Shown: positions 3,581 through 61,468 of the stretch, one piece after another
How positions within the stretch are numbered: the first letter of the stretch is position 1
Layout: each line of letters opens with the position of its first letter
Source of the DNA: Octopus vulgaris
Lineage: Eukaryota
Assembly: GCA_951406725.2 (NCBI GenBank)
Contig: OX597832.1
Span: 22,196,001 to 22,260,000, forward strand
Direction of reading: 5' to 3'
Length of the DNA stretch: 64,000 nt
Program-made: the position numbers and the translations under genes
The notes under the pieces: model-generated
Database searches by the model: none
What the model was told of the DNA's origin: nothing
Seen by the model: the letters and a program-made list of their open reading frames with translations, nothing else

Positions 3581-4822
3581 ATATATATATATGTATTTTT
3601 GTGTGTCTGTGTTTGTCCCCCCAACATCGTTTAACAACCGATGCTGGTGTGTTTACGTCCCCGTAACTTAGTGGTTCGGCAAGAAGAGACCGATAAGAAT
3701 AAGTACTAGGCTTACAAAGAATAAGTCCTGGGGGGGTCGATTTGCTCGACTAAAGGCGGTGCTCCAGCATGGCCACAATCAAATGAGTGAAACAAGTAAA
3801 AGAGTAAAAGAGAGTAAAGAGAGATATCTGTGTGTGTTGTGTATGTTTGTGTGTCTGTGTTTGTTCCCCCAACATCGCTTAACAACCGATGCTGGTGTGT
3901 TTACGTCAATCGTAACTTAGCAGTTCGGCAAAAAGAGACCGATAAGAATAAGTAACTAGGCTTACAAAAAGAATAAGTCCGGGGGAGTCGATTTGCTCGA
4001 CTAAAGGCGGTGCTCCAGCATGGCCACAGCCAAATGACTGAAACAAGTAAAAGAGCAAAAGAGTAAAAGAGTATTACTTCAACAACATTGAAAGATCAAA
4101 ATTTATAAAAGCATCGATTTTACTGTGGGTGATATACAATGACTGAAAGATTCAAACATAGCGAAAATAGATAATAAATAACAGACATTGAAATTCCAAT
4201 ACCGTTATGATTTTATTGCATATTGCTTTCAGTACGTCATCCTTTAACTTAATTACTCAAATTTTATGCGATTGGTTTCTTTGAGCCATTCCCCTTAGTT
4301 CTTGTTGTTTTTAATTATACAAATTACCCTTGGCTAAAAATAAGTGTAGCTCTTTTATACGTTTTGTATGTTTAAAAATTGTATTTACTAATCTTCGGGC
4401 TCCATTAGGCTGCGTTTTACTGATGAGGTCAAAAGGAAGCACGAAATATGTGTGCATTGTTGTCGCTTGCTTGCAAACAAAGATCAGACTGTCCTTTCTT
4501 TAAAAGCAGATCATTAAATCGAGAAATCTGTGTGTGTGTTATATGCACATGCATGTGTGTGTTGTGTGTGTGTATGTGTTTGTGTGTGTGTGTATGTGTG
4601 TGTGAATATATATTCACTTTTTATTTGTTTCAGTCATTTGACTGCAACCATGCTGAAGCACTGCCTTTTAGTCGAAAAAATCAACCCCAGGACTTATTTG
4701 TTGTAAGCCTAGTATTTATTCTATCAGTCTCTTTTGCCGAACTGCTGGGTCACAGGCATGTAGACATGCCAACATCAGTTGTCGAGTGATGGTGGTGGGA
4801 ACAAACACAGACACACAAACAT

Positions 4823-4862
<40 letters not shown>

Positions 4863-5911
4863 GATGGGCTTCTTTCAGTTTTTGTCTACCAGATCCACTC
4901 ACAAGGCTTTGGTCAGCCTAAGGTTATAGTAGAAGACACTTGCCCAAGGTGTTACACAGTGGGACTGAACCCAGAACCATGTGGTTGGTAAAGCAAGCTA
5001 CTTACCACACAGCCACTCCTATATATATATATATATATATATATACATACACACACAACAGTATGGCTGAATGGTCAACAAATTTGCTTTCCAGCCATAT
5101 GGTTTTAGGTTCAGTCCCACTGTGTGACATCTTGGACAAATATCTACTATGGCCCGGGACTGACCAAATCTTTGGGAGTAGATTTGGCAAACAGAAACTG
5201 CAAGAAGCCCATTCTGTGTATGTATATAAATGTATGTGTGTATGTATACATATATGTATGTAAATGTGTATAAATATATATATATGTATGCTTGTATATA
5301 AATATATATGTGTGTGAGTTTGTGTGAGTGTGTGTATGTATACATATAAGTGTATGTAAATGTGTATAAATATATATATGTATGCTTATATATAAATATA
5401 CATGTGCGTGAGTTAGTGTGGGTGTGTGTATGTATACATACATGTGTGTATATAAATATGTATAAATATATGTATGCATGTATATAAATATGTGTGTGTG
5501 TGTGTGTGTCTCGTCTTCATATTGTATAATAGTTGTAAAAAAAATCTCACTGTCATACAAGCAGTGTCATTCATCCATTTCCAATATCCAGTGAGGAATA
5601 TTACCTTGCTTTTGGAATCAGGTGAGGGTAAGGCATCCAGCCATAGAAGATCTGCATCCATAAGCACTGTTTGATCCATGCAAGGATAGAAAAGTGGACA
5701 TTGAAATGAAGATGACGACGATGACAATAACAATGATGACGAAAATGATGACGAGGAGGAGGATATATTCCGTGGGTGAGATCCAATAAACTACCAAAAT
5801 AACTAATAAAGAAAATATCTTATTTACATTATTTACATTTGATGGATATTTGTCCTCATCTTGTTTGTTGTTAACACTCCAGCCTTTATCAGGTATCTTG
5901 GGGAAATTTCG

Positions 5912-17664: not shown

Positions 17665-18501
17665 GTGATGATGATGTTTATGATGATGATAATGATGATG
17701 TTGATGTTGATGATGATGATGATGATGATGTTGATGATGATGATGACAGTGATGATGATGATGATGATGATGATTATAGTAGAAGACACTATCATCATCA
17801 TCATCATCATTATCATCATCATGATAGTGGTGATGATGATGACGATGACGGCGATGGTGATGATGATGATGATAGCCGATGTTAAATTTAGCCTTAGCAG
17901 TACACATAATTTCGTCACAGAAATAGCGAACATCAGGAGTAAAAGGAAAAGAAAAAAAAAATATTCTTGAATAACAGTCGTCTCCATATTTAACACGTCC
18001 CCTCTCGCCTCCCCCCTCCCCCCCGCCGCCTCCCGTCTTCATGGAACTCTTAACCTCCGTAAAATGTCCATTAAATAATTCATGCCATTTTCAAATCAAT
18101 AAGTTTATCGTGTAAAAGTATTTCCATCTGATAATTTGGTTTCTAAAGATTAGATTGGATTAACTGAAAATAGATTTAAGAAGCAATGTGTCATCATCAT
18201 CATCATCATCATCGTCGTCATGGTCATCATCATCATTTTCATCATCATCATCATCATCATCATCACCACTGCTACCATCATCATCATCGTCGTCATGGTC
18301 ATCATCATCATTTTCATCATTATCATTATCATTATAGGCACAGGAGTGGCTGTGTGGTAAGTAGCTTGCTTACAAATCACATGGTTCCAGGTTCAGTCCC
18401 ACTGCGTGCCACCTTAGGCAAGTGTCTTCTACTATAGCCTCGGGCCAACCAAAGCCTTGTGAGTGGATTTGGTAGACGGAAACTGAAAGAAGCCCGTCGT
18501 A

Positions 18502-18547
<46 letters not shown>

Positions 18548-18552
18548 ATTTA

Positions 18553-18684
18553 ATAGAAGGAGCTTCTACAGGACTAGAACTGTTTCATTCAAGAGAAATC
18601 TTCAGGAAGAATGTTCTTGTTAACTAGCTTCCTGAAGATTTCTCTTGAATGAAACAGTTCTAGTCCTGTAGAAGCTCCTTCTAT
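18553..18684. repeat. 57-bp perfect inverted repeat with a hammerhead in each arm, between (TA)n tracts
   Basis: 18553-18609 is the reverse complement of 18628-18684, with an 18-nt spacer. Confidence 0.9.
18626..18676 (+). ncRNA. Type I hammerhead ribozyme (U10.1.U11.1 variant)
   Basis: AGCUUC-CUGAAGA-u-UUC ucuu GAA-u-GAAA-CAG uucuaguc CUG-UA-GAAGCU. Confidence 0.75.
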
Positions 18685-18759
18685 ATAATAAATTAATTTT
18701 ACTCTGCTATGTATTGAGTACCTTATTTACTGTGGTTAACCCCGAATCAACCCGGGACC

Positions 18760-18807
<48 letters not shown>

Positions 18808-18940
18808 TAAATTAGAGATAAAACCACTATTAGGCAAATCAAACAATGAAAAACTTAAGCCAATACATAAAATTAATTAATTTATATTATTTTAAATATA
18901 TATCAAAAGTATTAATAGTTTAATAAAAGATAATGAGTAA

Positions 18941-19013
18941 AACACTACGATCGTTTCATGGCTGTCCAATTCGTAATAATTCGAGTTATGGTTACAGTCA
19001 ATCTTCAGGTAAT
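18941..19013 (-). ncRNA. Hammerhead ribozyme with extended stem II in an AT-rich PLE remnant (about 18800-20120)
   Basis: UAC-CUGAAGA-u-UGACUGU...ACAGCCA-u-GAAA-CGAUCG-UA-GUG. The downstream tail (atgtattggcttaagtttttcattgtttgatttgcctaatagtggttttatctctaat) matches the tail following the hammerhead at 55848. Confidence 0.72.
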
Positions 19014-19442
19014 TGAAATATCTAAAGTATAATCAGAAATATTTAAACAATATTTTTAAGATATAAATAATATAATAATTTTACTTATAATAAACTCTAT
19101 TATCAAACTAGAAACATAGAACTTAACAATTATGATTATATCAAAATCGACTATAATGTTAAATATTAATTTTAATTTATAAGGTAGGAAACCCATCCAT
19201 AATTTAATATCGGTATTAGTCTATATCTAATTACATAAATATTTAAAAATGACTAATATATATAAATTATCAATGAAAATATATAAATGTATATAAATAT
19301 TATAATTAAGATCTAAAATAATCTCTATAAATAAATATATATGCACATATAATAAAAACCTAATAAATTAATTTTTCATATTTAAAGATGAAATAGCTAA
19401 TTTCAAAATACAAATAAACAAACTTAAACGAACTTTCAGAAA

Positions 19443-23877: not shown

Positions 23878-23917
<40 letters not shown>

Positions 23918-23935
23918 AAACAATTTATAGGTAAT

Positions 23936-24261
23936 GGTCATTACAAATGTTTCCTTTATTAGATCAAATTTGGCTTACAGTCGTTTCCTGTAGTGATTAC
24001 AGGTACACTACTGATAGGGTTACTAAATTGGTCTATTGATTAGTTGAGAAAAACTGAACAACCCAAAGAAATTAATACTACTTCCATCAGCCGTTTCTGG
24101 TTATAACAAAGCATAAGACTGTAGGAATGGCATTAATTTTGTTAGTTAGTTCAGTTTTTCTCAGTTGATCAATAGACCAGTTGAATAAACCTATAAATGA
24201 CGTACCTGGAAACAGCTGTAAGCTAAATTTACTCTAATATAGGAAAAAATATGTAATGACC
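23936..24261. repeat. Degenerate fold-back element next to (TA)n with GAAAC-palindrome-UA hammerhead-like tails
   Basis: Arms ggtcattacaaatgtttcctttattagatcaaatttggcttacagtcgtttcc and ggaaacagctgtaagctaaatttactctaatataggaaaaaatatgtaatgacc. Inner match ggtctattgattagttgagaaaaactgaac / gttcagtttttctcagttgatcaatagacc. Confidence 0.7.
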
Positions 24262-24324
24262 TTTATTTTTGATTTGTTTTATATATTACTCAGTGTAAAA
24301 GTTATTTTGTCTAGAGCCCATCCA

Positions 24325-24992: not shown

Positions 24993-25388
24993 TATATACA
25001 CACATGTATATGCCTGACATATATATGTATATATACATGCATATATGGGTACAGGATGTCAAAATAACCTGAACAAAATGAGAAACAAGAACATTAAAAT
25101 ACAAAGGCATAGAAAACAAACTTTTTTTCAAACAACGAAAGAAACAAATAGGGAAATGAGACAAGCAATATAAAGAACATTCCCTTCATCAGTTGTCCCC
25201 TGTTTCATCTACTCTGCGTTTCGAAGGTAGGGACAAGACACAACTTCATTAAAACAGTCCTTCTCGCAAAGCAAATTAAATAAAATTGGGGATTTTTTTT
25301 GTGGAGGGTTAAAGTGGTAACAAAAACAGGACAGTAAGAGCAAAACAAACAGTGAGGGCTGTTATATATATATATATATATATATATA

Positions 25389-25508
25389 CACTGGCGAAAA
25401 TAAATCTAAGACTGTTTGAGATATAAATAATTTGTATGGTGTTAGTAACAAAATATTTTGTAAGAGATAGAACTTTTATCGTCGGTCTTAAATTTATTTT
25501 CGCCAGTG
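25389..25508. mobile_element. 120-bp Tc1-like MITE in (TA)n
   Basis: TIRs cactggcgaaaataaatctaagac / gtcttaaatttattttcgccagtg. Confidence 0.75.
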
Positions 25509-25509
25509 C

Positions 25510-25541
<32 letters not shown>

Positions 25542-31011: not shown

Positions 31012-32410
31012 TAACAATAAACAAAATGTTCCCCGTGAACTACGTTAAGGGTACACATGTCTGTGGAGTGCTCAGCCATTTGCACGTTAATTTCACGAGC
31101 AGGCTGTTCCGTTGATCGGATCAACTGGAACCCTCGTCGTCGTAACCGACGGAGAGCCGGTCACATCCTTCCTTTAAGAGTTGAGAAAGTATTTCGACCC
31201 ACAATGCATTTCTGTCTTGATGACAGAAAGCAAAAACAGATTAACCACATGACCTGGTATTCATTCCATAGATTTTTTATCTAATCTACCTCCCCATTCT
31301 CGTTTACACTCCTCATAGGCAACCGTTGACAACCGTAGGAGTGGCCGTGTAGTAAGTTGCTTGCTTACCAACCACATGGTTTCGGGTTCAGTCCCACTCT
31401 GTGGCACTTTGGGCTAGTGTCTTCTATTATAGCCTCGGGCCGACCAAAGCCTTGTGCGTGGATTTGGTAGACGGAAACTGAAAGAAGCCCGTCGTATATA
31501 TGTATATATATATGTGCATGTGTGTGTGTGTATGTTTGTGTCTGTGTTTATCCCCCCAACATCGCTTGACAACCGATGCTGGTGTATTTACGTCTCTGTA
31601 ACATTAGCGGTTCGGTAAAAGTGACCGATAGAATAAGTACTAGGCTTACAAAGAATAAGTCCTGGGAGCGATTTGCTTCGACTAAAGGCAGTGCTCCAGC
31701 ATGGCCGCAGTCAAATGACTGAAACAAGTAAAAGAGTAAAAGAGTAAAGAGTATACGTTAAGCAAAAAGCTTTGTATCAATATAAAGCGTTAAAACATTA
31801 TTATTTCGACCCTCTTTTGTAAACTGTTTCAGACAGAATTCTAAAAACCAAACTTCTTATTTGGATTCTGTTCCAGGGAATTAAGCAAACAGGCTGGCAT
31901 CAATTCAATCGTTATTGGCTTCAGATGCACGTGGAACTGAAATTCCAGGCCTGACTGCAGCTGCAATAGTTTGTTAATTCTTTGCATATCACCTAGGCAA
32001 CTATTTTATAGCAAGTAAGCATTTTTTTTTTTTGTATTTTGTATTTTGAAACTTTTGGTTTGTGGTGATATTAAAACCAGATGCCCCAAAATAAATAGAT
32101 GGAAATTACGTGAAGTAAAATAAAAGGAATACCTGCCCGAAGACTGAAACAGACATACATGCAAAAGCACATCACTGCACACTTAGGCATACACACACAC
32201 ACACACACACACATGTATATATACATGTGTGTGTGTGTATATATATACATAGGAGTGGCCGTGTGGTAAGTAGCTTGCTTACCAATCACATGGTTCCGGG
32301 TTCAGTCCCACTGCGTGGCGCCTTGGGCAAGTGTCTTCTACTATAGCTTCGGGCCGACCAAAACCTTGTGAGTGAATTTGGTTGACGGAAACTGAAAGAA
32401 GTCCGTTGTT

Positions 32411-32511
<101 letters not shown>

Positions 32512-33020
32512 TGTCTCTGTTCCCCCAACAGCGCTTGACAACCGATGCTGGTATGTTTACATCCCCGCAACTTAGCGGTTCGGCAAAAGAGACCGATAGA
32601 ATAAGTACTAGGCTTACAAAGAATAAGTCCTGGAGTCAATAACCGCGGATGGGCTTTACATAACATTCTACAAGGTTTTTACCCGAATCTTAACTTACGG
32701 GGACGTAAACACACCAGAATCGGTTGTCAAGCGAAGTTGTGGGAGATAAACACAAACACATACATACGCACACACACACACACGTATATATATATATATA
32801 TATATATATACGACAAGCTTCTTTCAGTTTCCGTCAACCAAATCCACTCACAAGGCTTTGGTCGGCACGAGACTATAGTAGAAGACACTTGCCCAAGGTG
32901 CCACGCAGTGGGACTAAACCCGGAACCATGTGGTTTGTAAACAAGCTACTTACACCACAGCCACTCCTACGCCTATATGAAATTCCATACTATCAGTAGA
33001 GTTAATATAAATAGCTAAAT

Positions 33021-33371
33021 GATAGGAAATAGAATGAACGACAGGCTTTATGTAATACCACTACAATTGTTTCGATACATTTTTATACCCGTAGTACATT
33101 GGTGAGATACTGTGTAATCTTATGCATCGCAGGTATAAAATGCACCTCCTCGTGTGATTGTTTAAATAAGTCCTTCGTTAGATCCTATGTTATTTCATTC
33201 AATGTGGCATGACAATAGGATCTAACGAGGGACTTATTTAAACAGTCACATGAGGAGGTGCATTTTACACCTACGATGAATAAGATTACACAGCATCTAC
33301 CTCAGTGTACGACGGGTGTAAAAATGTGTCGAAACAATTGTAGTGATATTAAATAAGGTTCATTCCATTTC

Positions 33372-33376
<5 letters not shown>
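33021..33376. repeat. ~355-bp fold-back element with a hammerhead-like motif in each arm (33245-33347 +; 33057-33158 -)
   Basis: Imperfect inverted arms centred near 33200. The + arm reads GUCAC-AUGAGGA-GGUGCAUUUUACACC...GGUGUAAAAAUGUGUC-GAAA-CAAUUG-UA-GUGAU. Confidence 0.8.
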
Positions 33377-33465
<89 letters not shown>

Positions 33466-36309: not shown

Positions 36310-36446
36310 GTATAATCGTCACTAAAGTGACTAAGAGTGCAAGTCAGCACCAGCATCGCTAGAAATAGGTCAAAACAACTCTTAGCCACGGGCCAAGCAC
36401 TATCTGTTGACTAACAAAGGAAGACAACTTCCCTACATCAAGCGAG

Positions 36447-36498
36447 AGCGTCAGATCATCGATGATTTCGGATAAGGTTAATCCTCATCAGTGACGCT
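36447..36498 (-). ncRNA. Canonical type I hammerhead ribozyme
   Basis: Minus strand reads AGCGUCA-CUGAUGA-GGAU uaaccuu AUCC-GAAA-UCAUCGAUGA-UC-UGACGCU. It has a perfect core, 7-bp stem I, 4-bp stem II, palindromic stem III and an AUC site. Confidence 0.88.
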
Positions 36499-45694: not shown

Positions 45695-46032
45695 AAGGAT
45701 ATCTAAGGTAGTGTAGTACAATCGTTTCATGCTACTTCATTTTATTAAACACTGTAAGTATTACATCAGTTTTAAAATGTCGAGCAATCTTCAGCTATAT
45801 ATAGAATTTTGTAATTAAACGGACAATGCACATTTTTATACTTATTTCATTTGCCAACTTTGAAATAAGTATAAAAATGAAATAAGTATAAAAATGTGCA
45901 TTGTCCATTTAATTAAAAAATTCTATATGTGACTGAAGATTGCTCAACATTTTAAAACTGATGTAATACTTACATTGTTTAATAAAATGAAGTAGCATGA
46001 AACGATTATACTACACTACCTTGGATATCCTT
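45695..46032. repeat. ~340-bp fold-back element in (TA)n with a long-stem-II hammerhead in each arm (45711-45800 -; 45928-46016 +)
   Basis: Arms of about 157 bp. UAG-CUGAAGA-u-UGCU-[~50-nt hairpin]-AGCA-u-GAAA-CGAUUG-UA-CUA. Confidence 0.82.
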
Positions 46033-51245: not shown

Positions 51246-51287
51246 GGGGGTGGTGGTATCAATTTTTCTCTTAAATATATTTATTTT

Positions 51288-51430
51288 TATTGAGGGCATT
51301 ACTATACATAAATGCCACACGCTGGGAGGGACTCTTAAAGTGAAAACTATCAAAATGTGTTTATTTATTTTGGTAGTTTTGACTTTAAGAGTCAATCCTA
51401 GCGTGTGGCATTTGTGTATAGTAATGCCCT

Positions 51431-51435
<5 letters not shown>
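51288..51435. repeat. 148-bp near-perfect palindrome (hairpin/MITE-like)
   Basis: tattgagggcattactatacataaatgccacacgct... / ...agcgtgtggcatttgtgtatagtaatgccctcaata. Confidence 0.9.
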
Positions 51436-51481
<46 letters not shown>

Positions 51482-52023: not shown

Positions 52024-52085
<62 letters not shown>

Positions 52086-52122
52086 AAAAAAGGAGATGTC
52101 GAACACGAGTGGTGATATATAA

Positions 52123-53094
52123 AAAAGGAAATGAAGAAAATGCTGACAAATAATTGAAGTAATTTAAGTAATTTAATTAGGTGAAAGTTCTTTTTACCGG
52201 TTGCGCATTTGTTATGCTTATCAAAATATAAAAGAGAGATTAGAGTCTGTCTCTTATATGTGAAAAAAAGAGGCTCCAGAGTTGTTTGGGATTTGCTTGG
52301 TTTCGCACCTAAAATTTTGATTGGTCATTATGAAGGGGTCACGTGAATGTTTGAATGGAAGTTGGTGTTGGGGTAAGAAAAAAGGCTACAGAGAAGTTAA
52401 AATTTGGCTAGTGTCCCGCCTAAAATTTCTTATTGGCCATAATAAAGAGGTCACGTGAATGTTTAGAATTTTCGAAAATAGTGTTGTTGAAAATTCTTAT
52501 TGTTCAGGCTGGTCAGTAGACGTCATGTGGATATTTTAAATAGCTTTTTAGCGCGTAGTTAGGGAGTGTATTTTCCGCTTGACTGGATAAGTAAGTTCGT
52601 TTAGAACAGGGAGAGCTGTATGTATGTATGTGTGTGCGCGCGCGGGCGCGTGTGTGTGTTTATATGTATGTTGGGGCGCGCGCGCGTGTATATATGTGTG
52701 TGTGTGTGGGTACAATTTTCAATATTTATAGTTCTGCTGGCCTTGTGCCTGTATCGGGAAGCAACGTATTTGTGTGAAGTCAATATTTACAGCCATTTCC
52801 AAAAAATAGTGTTGGATGTTTTGCACCCGTATTCAATTATGTGTATGTGTGGAACCATATATTTGTGTGTGTCATGGTGTTAATATCTGGGTAAAGGTGT
52901 GTGTAGGGTGTGTGCAGGTGTAAGTGTGTTTGTTGTGGGTTCGTGTTAGGGGCATGTGTTTAGAAGTGGTCTGTATTTATTAATAAGGTGGGATTCCATG
53001 GTTATTCGCTGGGTATGAGTGGCATTGTCTTTAAATTTGTAGAGGGGAAAGATTCTAAAATTGGGATGGAGTTGTGCGGCACAGGTATCAATAT
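52123..53094 (-). repeat. Left inverted arm (3' end of ORF + pLTR) of the PLE
   Basis: Reverse complement of 54777-55743 with only a few substitutions and microsatellite slips. Junction at ...acaggtatcaatat|caactt. Confidence 0.95.
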
Positions 53095-54925
53095 CAACTT
53101 AGCACTCTCCACCTTGGAAAATGGAACATATTACGAAAAGGCTGAACACTACAATCAACAGAAAATTATGAGAAACTTAAAAACCCTGATCAACCCCCAC
53201 AAAGAAGAACTCACTAACAAAGAATTCAACTTCATCACAAATTTCACTAGTAAAACCAGCCTCTTCTACGGTATTCCCAAAATTCATAAAAGCGAATTAA
53301 TAAGTAAGGCATGCAAGGAAGCCACAAACTCTGTAATCAATGTCCCCTCACCAAATGACCTCAAATTGAGACCTATAATAGCAGGTCCCGCTTGCGAAAC
53401 CCACCGCCTTAGCAACTTCATTGATACCCTTCTCAAGCCGTTCCTCAAACACATTAAAAGCTACATAAGGGACGATCTAGATATGCTCAACCACCTCCCC
53501 AATACACTTCTTGCTGAACAAACCCTGCTAGTAACATTCGATGTAGTCAATCTTTACTCCAACATCCCCCACAACCTAGGAATAGAAGCTATCCAATTCT
53601 GGCTGGATAATTACTCCAACGAACTCCCACACCGCATCAAAAAGGAATTTATTTTAGAAGGACTCAAATTCATCTTAGAGAATAATTTCTTCACCTTCAA
53701 CAACAAATTCTACAGACAGAAATCAGGGACGGCAATGGGAACGAAAACAGCTCCCACTTACGCCAACTTAGTCATGGGATACCTGGAAATCACTCTCTAT
53801 AATAACGTTCTTAACCAATTTGGCACCACTCTCCACACACACATAGAGAAGAACTGGAAGAGATATCTTGATGACTGCTTCATCCTTTGGCCCGAAACCG
53901 TCGAGAAGCTTAACGAATTTCACACTCTTATAAATGGGCTCAACACAAACATTATTTTCACAATGGAATACAGCCCTCAACAAATTCCCTTCCTCGACAT
54001 CCTCATTAAAATTCACAACAAAAAAATAGAAACAGACATATACTACAAGCCCACAGACTCCAAGCAATACCTCCCTTTCAATTCATGCCACCCTAGACAC
54101 GTTAAAATTAACATTCCCTACAACTTAGCCAAGAGAATTTGCACTATAGTCTCCAATAAAAACACCCGTCTCTTACGTCTACAAGAACTCAAGGGCACAT
54201 TAACAAGCAGGGATTACCCCACGTCACTAATTGACAATGGGATCCAACGCGCCCTAAAACTCAGCACGCAGGAACTTAGACGCCCTAAACCTGTTACATC
54301 GAAACCCCATACTCTACCATACATCTCTACACACAACCCCCTCAACAATGAAGCTTTTGACACCATCCTCCAGAACATTCCTGTATTACAAAAGGACCAT
54401 AGAATGAACCAAATCCTCCTAACACACGAAATCATAAAGAGCAAAAGGCAACCCAAATCATTGAAAACCATCCTAACAAATGCCAAAGTACTGCCAACCA
54501 CAACAACTAAACCCACAGTAAACAAATGCAATAGACCCAACTGTGGTATATGCATCAACCTAATAGAAGGTCCGGAATTCCTTTTTAAACAAGGACAACG
54601 TTTCACAGTAAAACACAACTTCACATGCGCATCAGAAAACCTAGTATATGTCTTAACTTGCTCGGGCTGTAATGAACACTACATAGGCCAAACAAAAAAT
54701 AGCCTCCGCCAACGCATGACTGTCCACAGATCCCAAATAAAAATACAGGAATATAGAAAAATAGCATTTAGTGCACATATTGATACCTGTGCCGCACAAC
54801 TCCATCCCAATTTTAGAATCTTTCCCCTCTACAAATTTAAAGACAATGCCACTCATACCCAGCGAATAACCATGGAATCCCACCTTATTAATAAATACAG
54901 ACCACTTCTAAACACATGCCCCTAA
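52988..54925 (+). CDS. PLE polyprotein (reverse transcriptase + GIY-YIG endonuclease), N-terminally truncated; the first ~36 codons are antisense sequence from the inverted arm
   Basis: RT motifs FYGIPKIHK, LRPII, FDVVNLYSNIP, QKSGTAMG, RYLDDCF, PFLDI and YYKPT. Cys linker CNRPNCGIC. GIY-YIG motif LVYVLTC...YIGQT...RMTVHR, ending in PLLN. No stops from 53096 to 54925. Confidence 0.93.
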   Translation: MGFHGYSLGMSGIVFKFVEGKDSKIGMELCGTGININLALSTLENGTYYEKAEHYNQQKIMRNLKTLINPHKEELTNKEFNFITNFTSKTSLFYGIPKIHKSELISKACKEATNSVINVPSPNDLKLRPIIAGPACETHRLSNFIDTLLKPFLKHIKSYIRDDLDMLNHLPNTLLAEQTLLVTFDVVNLYSNIPHNLGIEAIQFWLDNYSNELPHRIKKEFILEGLKFILENNFFTFNNKFYRQKSGTAMGTKTAPTYANLVMGYLEITLYNNVLNQFGTTLHTHIEKNWKRYLDDCFILWPETVEKLNEFHTLINGLNTNIIFTMEYSPQQIPFLDILIKIHNKKIETDIYYKPTDSKQYLPFNSCHPRHVKINIPYNLAKRICTIVSNKNTRLLRLQELKGTLTSRDYPTSLIDNGIQRALKLSTQELRRPKPVTSKPHTLPYISTHNPLNNEAFDTILQNIPVLQKDHRMNQILLTHEIIKSKRQPKSLKTILTNAKVLPTTTTKPTVNKCNRPNCGICINLIEGPEFLFKQGQRFTVKHNFTCASENLVYVLTCSGCNEHYIGQTKNSLRQRMTVHRSQIKIQEYRKIAFSAHIDTCAAQLHPNFRIFPLYKFKDNATHTQRITMESHLINKYRPLLNTCP

Positions 54926-55630
54926 CACGAACCCACAACAAACACACTTACACCTGCACACACCCTACACACACCTTTACCCAGATATTAACACCATGAC
55001 ACACACAAATATATGGTTCCACACATACACATAATTGAATACGGGTGCAAAACATCCAACACTATTTTTTGGAAATGGCTGTAAATATTGACTTCACACA
55101 AATACGTTGCTTCCCGATACAGGCACAAGGCCAGCAGAACTATAAATATTGAAAATTGTACCCACACACACACACATATATACACGCGCGCGCGCCCCAA
55201 CATACATATAAACACACACACGCGCGCGCGCACACACATACATACATACAGCTCTCCCTGTTCTAAACGAACTTACTTATCCAGTCAAGCGGAAAATACA
55301 CTCCCTAACTATGCGCTAAAAAGCTATTTAAAATATCCACATGACGTCTACTGACCAGCCTGAACAATAAGAATTTTCAACAACACTATTTTCGAAAATT
55401 CTAAACATTCACGTGACCTCTTTATTATGGCCAATAAGAAATTTTAGGCGGGACACTAGCCAAATTTTAACTTCTCTGGAGCCTTTTTTCTTACCCCAAC
55501 ACCAACTTCCATTCAAACATTCACGTGACCCCTTCATAATGACCAATCAAAATTTTAGGTGCGAAACCAAGCAAATCCCAAACAACTCTGGAGCCTCTTT
55601 TTTCACATATAAGAGACAGACTCTAATCTC

Positions 55631-55677
55631 TCTTTTATATTTTGATAAGCATAACAAATGCGCAACCGGTAAAAAGA
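55631..55677 (+). ncRNA. Variant hammerhead-like motif in the PLE pLTR (mirror copy at 52189-52235, minus)
   Basis: UUGAUAA-GCAU aacaa AUGC-GCAA-CCGG-UA, with UCUUUU/AAAAGA flanks. This is hammerhead topology with a substituted core and a palindromic mini stem III. Confidence 0.55.
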
Positions 55678-55738
55678 ACTTTCACCTAATTAAATTACTT
55701 AAATTACTTCAATTATTTGTCAGCATTTTCTTCATTTC

Positions 55739-55784
<46 letters not shown>

Positions 55785-55847
55785 TATATAAACGCTGTAA
55801 CAGTTAAATTCACTTCATAACTTAAAATTGAATAGAAGATCTGAAAT

Positions 55848-55893
55848 CCACCTGATGAATGTCCTTAGAAGAGACACGAAACAATTGTAGTGG
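55848..55893 (+). ncRNA. Minimal type I hammerhead ribozyme in a separate PLE pLTR fragment (55790-55995) bounded by (TA)n
   Basis: CCAC-CUGAUGA-a-UGUC cuuagaaga GACA-c-GAAA-CAAUUG-UA-GUGG: 4-bp stem I, palindromic stem III, GUA cleavage triplet. Confidence 0.8.
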
Positions 55894-55989
55894 CGAATTT
55901 AATTTTATTTAATTTATATTAAATTTCTTTATGTATTGGATTAAGTCTTTCTTTGTTTGATTTGCAAAATAGTGGTTTTGTCTCTAATA

Positions 55990-56038
<49 letters not shown>

Positions 56039-60196: not shown

Positions 60197-61152
60197 ATCA
60201 ATAGGGATCGTTATAACAGAAATTTCAATATGAAGTGTAAAGGGGAGGACAGGTGAGGTTTACCCGTGGAAAGAAAAGCCTACGGAAAAGACCACGGTAA
60301 CCTCGGTCAATGAAGTCACATTTTATATTTCTTTTTTTTTTTTTTTTTTTTTTGCAAATAAGCAACTCTCTGTTTTCGATTTCTGGGTTCATAGGACTAT
60401 GCTCAAGGTGGCTTCGTCATTCATACGTGCCATTCTTGCTACATTCACCCATCTTTTTTTAAAACATTCGCTAGACAAAACTTGCCTCTCTACTCTCACT
60501 TTCCTTTTCAAGTGGTACTTGAAGAAGTTGATGAGAGATTGACCAGAGAGGAAAGTGTTTGTCTCCAATCCTTTCAGACGCGTCCACCAGATACATTCTT
60601 TCGCCATAGCCACAAGGATGATGAAAATAGCTCTTCCTTCCCGTTTGAAGGAAGGAGGCGTCACAATATTGACGATAGACTCAGCTGATAAACCGACTCG
60701 TCCCACACGTGACAGCAGTTGTTCGACATAAGCCCACAGGTCGGAAATTGTTGGACACTGAACGAGTGCGTGCAGAACGGTTTCGTCGCTCTGACCGCAT
60801 CTCGGGCAGGTCGGCCCCGTGTTTCTCGAGCCGTGTCTGTAGAGCTTATCCCGAACGGGTAGCGCTTCTCGGTAGCACTGCCAGGCCAGGGATCTCTGGA
60901 AGTTGTCCATGGGCCCTGGCCCGAAAGTCGTCCTGAACAGGCGGGTCAGGTACTCCTCGTCGACGTCCAGGTTCGCCCCGAGCTCGTCGTCGTACCTCCC
61001 CTCCACTAAACCCCTATAGAATGCTTTGGTTGTGTTGAAGTCACTTAAGGTCGACCCAGGACGGCAGAGTTGCTTAAGAGCAACGCGACACTCGCGGTGC
61101 CATTCGCCCTTCCTCGGCCTCTTTTTGATCCACGACTGCAGTTCGGTCATGG

Positions 61153-61153
<1 letters not shown>
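59984..61153 (-). mobile_element. Tx1/L1-clade LINE 3' fragment (ORF2 C-terminus + 3' UTR) inserted in (GATA)n
   Basis: ORF 60389-61150 contains W...EALPVRDKL...CPRC...ETVLHALVQC (zf-RVT CCHC) and IWWTR. The 3' end aataaagaaa is followed by (CTAT)n. Confidence 0.88.
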
Positions 61154-61198
<45 letters not shown>

Positions 61199-61212
61199 GT
61201 AGATAGATAGAT

Positions 61213-61468
61213 AACTTTCTTTATTGGCCACACAGAGCTGGACACAGAGGGGACAATTACAAATGTAGAGCTTTTCTTTTCGGAGATGGAAAAGGAAAGG
61301 GAAGAAAAAAAAAGGGAAACAAATGTAAAATTTCGATCAAAAGGGATCGGAAGAAAAAAAAGCGATCAAAAGGGATCGTGTATTACAGAAAGAAAAAATT
61401 ATTTTTTTTCAAAGTAACAAACAAGATTAGGTTCGTCCGTGGAAAGAAAAGCCTACAGAAAAGACCAC

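What the first reader, a model, noticed from the sequence alone, without database searches (positions are those of the whole stretch)
18553..18684. Minimal back-to-back double-hammerhead palindrome
Seen: a perfect 57-bp inverted repeat in which each arm is essentially just a hammerhead (CUGAAGA...GAAA CAG-loop-CUG UA, stem I AGCUUC/GAAGCU), inserted between (TA)n tracts. Stem III has a real 8-nt loop, so it could fold as a monomer. Transcription from either strand gives a ribozyme preceded by its own antisense copy, which would be self-inhibiting. Inference: an extremely truncated PLE insertion, or a minimal non-autonomous ribozyme element.
Basis: partly seen in the sequence, partly recalled or inferred. 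Interest (0 to 1): 0.7.

Follow-up and report, generated by a model that had tools for sequence, protein, structure and literature searches.

The report
Head-to-head Penelope-type hammerhead stub
The palindrome is real, but it is two short back-to-back copies of a very common ribozyme-bearing repeat, likely pasted in together by a Penelope-type jumping gene and predicted to fold into an inactive hairpin, so it is an ordinary insertion scar and not a self-spreading minimal ribozyme.

Summary
Confirmed: a perfect 57-bp inverted repeat (18553-18609 / 18628-18684) with a hammerhead core on each strand. The insert is larger and asymmetric (18545-18762): a short inverted copy plus a longer forward copy with a 69-nt tail, between (TA)n tracts.

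Public-run contigs show an abundant family with many head-to-head junctions at different points (61 joints). The window's junction is over 1,000-fold rarer than the arms, so this is not a fixed palindromic element.

Self-inhibition is supported (-119 vs -40 kcal/mol).

Best reading: a 5'-truncated, inverted insertion made by Penelope-like element (PLE) enzymes, a published pattern. A coding PLE with an inverted 5' piece and a second hammerhead palindrome lie in the same window. Whether the parent is a coding PLE or a non-coding retrozyme is unresolved. The scan already found this class on other DNA of this genome.

The parts
18338..18500 (+). Context: dispersed SINE-like repeat whose (TA)n tail is the insertion target (SINE label recalled, from no call)
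   Evidence: 18 other matches in the window, 72-94% identity; ARAGORN calls no tRNA
18500..18544 (.). Left (TA)n/(TG)n tract, target site
   Evidence: sequence
18545..18611 (-). Inverted short copy. Exact arm 18553-18609; imperfect outer extension 18545-18552 reaching the family's short end; 18610-18611 likely the remnant of a longer arm after a 12-nt deletion
   Evidence: family short end at 18693 in 6 of 8 runs
18563..18609 (-). Hammerhead motif of the inverted copy, core starting at 18605, 4-bp stem I, predicted cut between 18567 and 18566
   Evidence: descriptor and fold; activity untested
18610..18627 (.). 18-nt spacer: 18614-18627 is family sequence of the forward copy; 18612-18613 is not mirrored
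   Evidence: family sequence continues upstream from 18614 as one shared loose end in 7 of 8 runs
18614..18762 (+). Forward long copy of the repeat: 5'-truncated below its TATA-like box, hammerhead, then 3' part and tail
   Evidence: 9065, 1783, 1032 and 1723 contigs laid on 18545-18762 in 4 DNA runs
18626..18676 (+). Type I hammerhead motif: stem I 18626-31/18671-76, core 18632-38, U18639.U18650, stem II 18640-42/18647-49, GAAA 18651-54, stem III 18654-57/18666-69, loop 18658-65, predicted cut after 18670 (GUA)
   Evidence: activity untested
18694..18762 (+). 69-nt extension present on one arm only, likely the PLE 'tail' between two reverse-transcription start sites
   Evidence: other copies stop at 18693 or 18697 and go into (TA)n; tail concept from PMC11167929 and PMC8557442 (there 30-40 bp)
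18763..18803 (.). Right (TA)n tract, target site
   Evidence: sequence
18804..19015 (-). Context: convergent end of a different hammerhead-bearing repeat (core at 19008), related to the terminal repeat of the coding PLE at 52964-54925
   Evidence: 18764-18897 matches 55902-56034 at 86.6%; descriptor hit

Best explanation
The 218-bp insert is two truncated head-to-head copies of an abundant hammerhead-bearing repeat, likely the terminal repeat (pLTR) of a protein-coding Penelope-like retrotransposon, and both were likely laid down in one insertion into a (TA)n tract. Shown: the copies, their asymmetry (short end near 18693, long end at 18762), the family's abundance and the variable junctions. 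Inferred mechanism: the GIY-YIG endonuclease nicks both strands of the AT-rich target. Each nick primes reverse transcription at one of two internal start sites just downstream of the hammerhead. Both cDNAs stop near the RNA's 5' end, just above the hammerhead, and are joined head to head. In this copy both arms likely began at about 18614, and the left arm then lost 12 nt between two AAG repeats. The stub lacks the family's TATA-like box, so it likely has no promoter. If read through, it is predicted to zip into a 57-bp hairpin before a hammerhead can fold, so it would be catalytically dead double-stranded RNA. In intact parent RNAs the hammerhead is predicted to work weakly, most likely as a dimer through its near-palindromic stem III.
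For: Family abundance: 9065/1783/1032/1723 contigs on 218 bp in 4 of 4 DNA runs. Variable junctions: 61 joints, 15 shown, spread over 18581-18609 to 18627-18664; 5 of the 15 occur in two runs; 0 of the 15 keep both cores. Depth at 18611-18612 is 1268/583/47/19 against 1.67/0.73/0.36/1.10 million at 18577-18584. Shared upstream continuation at 18614 in 7 of 8 runs, with a TATAAA motif. Short end at 18693 into (TA)n in 6 of 8 runs. Same window: a PLE ORF (RT + GIY-YIG; CX4CxxC linker) with a 1051-bp inverted 5' piece and a hammerhead at 55852, plus a second asymmetric hammerhead palindrome at 45695-46032. The tail resembles that PLE's terminal repeat weakly (10 of 2000 shuffles). Literature: inverted 5'-truncated copies, a one-sided tail and (TA)n bias (PMC8557442); head-to-head palindromes (PMC3846280); paired hammerheads on opposite strands 100-700 bp apart (PMC4209133); both strands cut and extended with two internal RT starts (PMC11167929). 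Folding: -119.0 vs -40.4 kcal/mol with the hammerhead forced; the hairpin forms as soon as the second arm emerges.
Against: No ORF has been linked to this family. No genome is held, four collection scans were empty, and only 30 letters of upstream sequence were visible. The hammerhead's geometry (6-bp stem I, short stem II) is closer to canonical retrozyme hammerheads than to PLE minimal ones (4-5 bp stem I, 7-8 bp stem II; PMC4209133). The tail is 69 nt, not 30-40. The tail similarity is between AT-rich strings, and 2 of 4 comparisons were null (709 and 1870 of 2000). All joints have sides under 30 letters at 80% likeness, and depth is summed over contigs, so it is not a copy number. No listed contig spans the window's own junction (tables were cut). 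No target-site duplication can be read in (TA)n. The 12-nt deletion rests on only 2 extra matching bases.
Confidence: 0.62

Rival explanations
1. Same insertion mechanism, but the parent is a non-coding rider (a non-LTR retrozyme or SINE-like pLTR derivative) moved in trans by PLE enzymes.
For: 6-bp stem I and 4-position stem II match canonical metazoan type I hammerheads (PMC4209133). A retrozyme hammerhead with U.U at the base of stem II is known and cleaves (axolotl HHR_Amex2, PMC7229834 section 15). Retrozymes are proposed to derive from pLTRs (bioRxiv 10.64898/2026.07.22.740005). No ORF was found for this family.
Against: No tandem unit was seen (the laid stretch could not show one). The TATA-like box, one-sided tail, (TA)n target and weak tail likeness to a coding PLE's repeat fit a pLTR. 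U.U also occurs in two other families in the window, one of them related to the coding PLE's repeat.
Confidence: 0.22
2. A fixed minimal palindromic element (MITE-like double hammerhead) that spreads as a unit.
For: Perfect, young-looking arms. Head-to-head junctions recur near 18626 (loose ends mirroring the arm in 4 of 8 runs), and a few contigs have junctions near 18611-18612 (5 contigs with 1-4 letters left out).
Against: 61 different joints; junction depth 1,200- to 56,000-fold below arm depth; asymmetric arms; no own promoter; no ribozyme fold possible in the full transcript.
Confidence: 0.05
3. A plain truncated copy inserted first, and the mirror arm arose later by fold-back DNA repair or replication slippage in the (TA)n tract.
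For: Arms are identical over 57 bp; palindrome centres are unstable; the 12-nt microhomology deletion suggests later repair.
Against: The mirror arm ends at the family's recurring short end and not at a random place. It shows A at the position equivalent to 18686 where the right arm has T, and both letters are common in the family (A in 18-39% of depth), which fits two templates better (weak, one base near the junction).
Confidence: 0.06
4. Assembly or library fold-back artefact.
For: No listed contig spans the window's junction; palindromes flanked by microsatellites are hard to assemble.
Against: The arms differ at their outer ends, the spacer is asymmetric, 5 of 15 shown joints of the same type recur in two runs, and non-zero depth crosses 18611-18612 in 4 of 4 DNA runs.
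Confidence: 0.03
5. A host-adopted regulatory hairpin or ribozyme switch.
For: It would give a 57-bp perfect duplex. Palindromic repeats are favoured A-to-I editing targets and octopus has much hyper-editing (PMC5625713 passages).
Against: One of many similar scars (12 near inverted repeats in this window alone); no host gene, promoter or conservation shown; the energy gap of about 79 kcal/mol leaves no room for switching.
Confidence: 0.02

Closest known systems
Inverted-pLTR insertions of endonuclease-bearing Penelope-like elements (Adineta vaga Pen2a/Pen3, PMC3846280; Craig et al. 2021, PMC8557442 fig. 2; passages read)
   Same: Head-to-head inverted 5'-truncated copy, palindrome at the junction, extension on one arm only, AT-rich/(TA)n target, hammerhead in the repeat
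   Different: No ORF part at all; arms only about 67 and 149 bp; tail 69 nt instead of 30-40; coding parent not identified
PLE minimal hammerheads (Cervera and De la Pena 2014, PMC4209133; parts 1-2 of 4 read)
   Same: Type I core, palindromic helix III region, pairs on opposite strands reported in Schistosoma, dispersed truncated copies
   Different: Longer stem I (6 bp), shorter stem II (3 bp), U.U instead of G10.1-C11.1, 4-bp stem III with an 8-nt loop; the two motifs lie only about 27 nt apart, not 100-700 bp
Metazoan non-LTR retrozymes, especially axolotl HHR_Amex2 (Cervera and de la Pena 2020, PMC7229834 sections 14-15; Li et al. 2026 bioRxiv, part 1 of 5 and passages)
   Same: Type I hammerhead with U.U at the base of helix II, high copy number, better cleavage as dimers
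   Different: Here inverted, not tandem; no 150-450-bp tandem unit or circular RNA shown; loop-loop contacts not examined
Poseidon_Ac of Anolis (Frangieh et al. 2024, PMC11167929; parts 1-2 of 4 read)
   Same: Two internal RT start sites downstream of the hammerhead explain a short and a long end; both target strands are cut and extended in AT-rich DNA
   Different: Shown in vitro there, only inferred here; spacing of the two ends is larger here

Membership tests
Type I hammerhead ribozyme | Core CUGANGA ... GAAA ... NUH with three helices | tested here: met
   both arms
Type I hammerhead ribozyme | G10.1-C11.1 pair at the base of helix II | tested here: not met
   U.U; no variant at these places reached 3%; precedent for activity with U.U in PMC7229834
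Type I hammerhead ribozyme | Match to an Rfam hammerhead model | tested here: inconclusive
   none at E<=10; the control motif at 36491 reaches only E 0.46
Type I hammerhead ribozyme | Self-cleavage after NUH | not testable with these tools
   no assay; contigs cannot show RNA ends
EN+ Penelope-like element insertion | Inverted 5'-truncated copy adjoining the 5' end, variable junctions | tested here: met
EN+ Penelope-like element insertion | Tail on one end only | tested here: met
   short end 18693/18697 vs long end 18762; 69 nt, longer than the published 30-40
EN+ Penelope-like element insertion | AT-rich or (TA)n target | tested here: met
   loose ends into (TA)n
EN+ Penelope-like element insertion | Family linked to an RT + GIY-YIG ORF | tested here: inconclusive
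   no genome; scans empty; 0 hits for 4 motifs in the 1 supplementary file held for PMC8557442; weak tail likeness only
EN+ Penelope-like element insertion | Target-site duplication | tested here: inconclusive
   unreadable in (TA)n
Non-LTR retrozyme | Tandem direct repeats of 150-450 bp, each with a hammerhead | tested here: not met
   not at this locus; family-wide arrangement not visible
Non-LTR retrozyme | Linear and circular monomer RNAs | not testable with these tools
   only contigs of guessed RNA runs available
MITE-like fixed palindromic element | Many copies with the same ends and centre | tested here: not met
   61 joints; rare junction

The most novel reading that the evidence does not exclude
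This family's main mobile unit is a hammerhead-sized RNA of about 70-140 nt. It starts at the first base of stem I (A18626, 29 nt below a TATAAA) and is reverse-transcribed from the two internal start sites. Two run-off cDNAs anneal through the self-complementary AGCT at their 3' ends, giving head-to-head insertions that silence their own ribozymes and supply double-stranded RNA. This would give a concrete, testable route for PLE inversion (two cDNAs joined by terminal microhomology) and tie the hammerhead's 5' edge to the transcription start. Support: copies diverge at 18626 in 7 of 8 runs, in 4 of them into the mirror arm. Against: this copy itself starts 12 nt further up, loose ends at 18614 are as frequent, and most shown joints lie inside the hammerhead.
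Probability: 0.2. Interest if true: 0.5.

Novelty: new member of a known kind. Interest (0 to 1): 0.2.

Why it matters
As it stands it matters little: it is one of many short PLE-type insertion scars, of a kind described in print and found repeatedly by this scan. Its use is as a clean, young example for two open questions. One is how PLEs make head-to-head inversions, which Craig et al. 2021 call undefined. The other is whether hammerheads with U.U at 10.1/11.1 and a longer near-palindromic stem III cleave as monomers or dimers. The 51-nt arm is a cheap test substrate.

Tried and rejected
No own genome was available. Exact-pattern scans found 0 matches in metagenome, viral and prokaryote genome collections. 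Rfam at gathering threshold gave 0 hits in the window. The miRNA-family hits at E~1e-11 are below their gathering scores and only reflect a long perfect hairpin, so they were rejected. BLAST found no second copy of this family in the window. The scan's look-ups by sequence and by nearby place were empty.

No RNA holder is on record. Three guessed RNA runs hold family sequence (5, 45 and 69 contigs) and show no joints, but contigs cannot show strand, level or ends, so nothing is concluded on expression, cleavage or editing. A single-copy depth baseline was not measured, so no copy number is given.

A 7-bp pairing between family upstream sequence and the tail was noticed and dropped as expected by chance (rough hand estimate). 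The bacterial promoter scan and ARAGORN were uninformative.

Lunse et al. 2017 on PLE hammerhead dimers is not held and is recalled only. Paper searches: 'Penelope-like + head-to-head + hammerhead' gave 0; 'Penelope-like + twin priming + inverted' gave 2 off-topic listings; a search for G10.1/C11.1 rate data gave 0 and a looser one gave 3 unread listings. These cover only the open library, so absence from print is not established. Supplements of PMC4209133 and PMC7229834 (hammerhead alignments) were not seen and may hold this family.

Full report
Observation. The exact inverted repeat is 57 bp (18553-18609 / 18628-18684) with an 18-nt spacer. It folds at -104.5 kcal/mol, z = -19, with 0 of 200 shuffles as stable. 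Each arm carries a type I hammerhead core pointing outwards (+ 18632, - 18605). A descriptor gives 4 hits in the window and a mean of 0.0 in 30 block-shuffled windows. The + motif has a 6-bp stem I and the - motif only 4 bp. Stem II is 3 bp over a U.U at 10.1/11.1, and stem III is 4 bp with an 8-nt loop. Rfam does not recognise it and barely recognises a more canonical motif at 36491 (E 0.46). The window is microsatellite-rich animal-like DNA.

Extent. The insert runs from the left (TA)n (ending 18544) to the right (TA)n (starting 18763). The left arm continues imperfectly for 8 more bases (6 of 8 match). The right copy continues to 18762. Mirroring the right side shows that the left arm reads as the mirror of 18614-18642 with 12 nt missing between two AAG repeats. 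So both arms likely started at about 18614, though this rests on only two extra bases.

Family. No genome is held, so contigs of public runs were used. 20 of 24 listed runs, from 11 studies, hold half or more of 18 sampled words. I laid 8 of the 24. In four DNA runs 9065, 1783, 1032 and 1723 contigs lie on the 218 bp. Five results follow. (a) One shared upstream sequence joins at 18614 in 7 of 8 runs (rows shown; tables were cut) and holds a TATAAA that this copy lacks. (b) There are 61 left-to-right joints. The 15 shown have inversion points spread across the hammerhead, 5 of them occur in two runs, and none of the 15 keeps both cores. (c) Depth at 18611-18612 (1268, 583, 47, 19) is 1,200- to 56,000-fold below that at 18577-18584. 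(d) Copies end at 18693 and run into (TA)n in 6 of 8 runs, and at 18697 in 4 of 8; this is where the left arm ends. (e) Copies diverge at 18626, the first base of stem I, in 7 of 8 runs: in 4 into the mirror arm around the self-complementary AGCT, in 3 into unrelated flanks. Caveats: depth is summed over contigs and is not a copy number, joint sides are under 30 letters, and no listed contig spans this junction.

Surroundings. The window holds a PLE ORF at 52964-54925 (RVT_1 E 2e-7, GIY-YIG E 3e-6; CX4CxxC linker). It has a 1051-bp inverted 5' piece at 96% identity and a hammerhead at 55852. A second, older hammerhead palindrome with one short and one long end lies at 45695-46032. Directly right of the finding, a relative of the coding PLE's terminal repeat sits in the same (TA)n tract in the opposite direction (86.6%; core at 19008). 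Of 5 hammerhead families in the window, 3 have U.U and 1 has A.C at 10.1/11.1 (no shuffle control for that relaxed scan). The finding's tail aligns weakly to the tails at 55891 (10 of 2000 shuffles) and 18804 (31 of 2000), and not to two others (709 and 1870 of 2000).

Ribozyme. In the isolated + arm the exact hammerhead fold is -7.3 kcal/mol (MFE -8.5) with probability 0.018; pair probabilities are 0.72-0.99 for stem I, about 0.5 for stem III and about 0.06 for stem II. For the - arm the probability is 0.002. The 16-nt stem III region gives -1.4 as a hairpin and -12.8 as a two-molecule duplex, and two arms co-fold at -27.0 through it. A common family variant at 18659 (12-28% of depth) lengthens the self-complementary centre from 4 to 6 nt, which helps both the dimer and the hairpin. 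In print, PLE hammerheads cleave poorly and as dimers (PMC4209133; review PMC6765202 passages) or need the protein (PMC11167929). A U.U-based retrozyme hammerhead gives 22% cleavage in an hour as a monomer and more as a dimer (PMC7229834 section 15). In the whole insert, forcing the hammerhead costs about 79 kcal/mol on either strand (-119.0 vs -40.4; -118.9 vs -40.9), and in stepwise folds the long hairpin is present from 18640 on. Self-inhibition is therefore a firm prediction, but it is a by-product of the inversion.

Mechanism. Shown: two truncated copies, head to head, with unequal ends, in (TA)n, from a family with variable junctions. From the literature: EN+ PLEs often carry an inverted 5'-truncated copy, a one-sided tail and a (TA)n bias (PMC8557442 passages); head-to-head palindromes are the common form (PMC3846280 passages, which favours self-priming on an antisense template); and a purified PLE protein cuts and extends both strands from two internal RNA start sites (PMC11167929). 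Inferred: two priming events, one at each start site, with cDNAs ending just above the hammerhead and joined head to head. The arms are hammerhead-sized because the RT start sites lie just below the motif and the RNA likely starts just above it (TATA to 18626 is 29 nt; the usual spacing is from my own knowledge). Self-priming fold-back is not excluded. One base favours two templates: the arms differ at a position where the family has two common letters. The reading that ends mark transcription and RT starts, the short/long-end rule and the two-template idea were also in unchecked earlier notes of this scan; I tested them only partly on this family.

Parent. Unresolved. Four collection scans were empty, and 4 motifs gave 0 hits in the single supplementary file held for PMC8557442. 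The TATA-like box, tail and target fit a pLTR (0.62), while the hammerhead geometry fits a retrozyme-type rider (0.22). Both share the same insertion mechanism, 0.84 together. The other rivals are a fixed palindromic element (0.05), later fold-back (0.06), artefact (0.03) and host function (0.02).

Novelty. A new member of a known kind. Paired opposite-strand PLE hammerheads are mentioned in PMC4209133, and the scan has several notes on such palindromes elsewhere in this genome, though none with this sequence. Searches for a printed account of the AGCT-joining idea found none in the open library, which does not show absence from print. Interest 0.2; novel case probability 0.2, interest 0.5.

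Noticed in passing
window 52044-55992: PLE with RT + GIY-YIG ORF (52964-54925, CX4CxxC linker), a 1051-bp inverted 5' piece at 96% identity, and a hammerhead at 55852 with palindromic stem III and A.C at 10.1/11.1; its terminal repeat has an internal (TA)n at which the inverted piece ends
   Followed up: partly
window 45695-46032: Second head-to-head hammerhead palindrome, arms 90.5% alike, 59-nt stem II region, one short and one long end, in (TA)n
   Followed up: partly
window 18804-19015 (-): Convergent PLE-type end with a hammerhead core at 19008 sharing the (TA)n tract with the finding, so this tract was hit at least twice
   Followed up: partly
window 18632, 19008, 45794, 55852: 4 of 5 hammerhead families in the window have a 1x1 mismatch (U.U or A.C) instead of G10.1-C11.1, which standard descriptors may miss
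   Followed up: partly
window 36443-36498 (-): Canonical-looking hammerhead (G10.1-C11.1, 7-bp stem I, palindromic stem III), no other copy in the window
   Followed up: partly
window 33007-33391: Older 385-bp palindrome (82%) whose arms end in the 3' half of a hammerhead-like motif; 5' half not recognised
   Followed up: no
window 51272-51451, 25368-25529, 23909-24286: Further decayed palindromes next to (TA)n tracts without a detected hammerhead
   Followed up: no
window 60392-61336 (-): ORF with a zf-RVT domain (E 6e-8), likely a LINE fragment
   Followed up: no
window 18338-18500: SINE-like repeat with 18 other matches in the window, some as inverted pairs (32241-32978, 4815-5261)
   Followed up: partly
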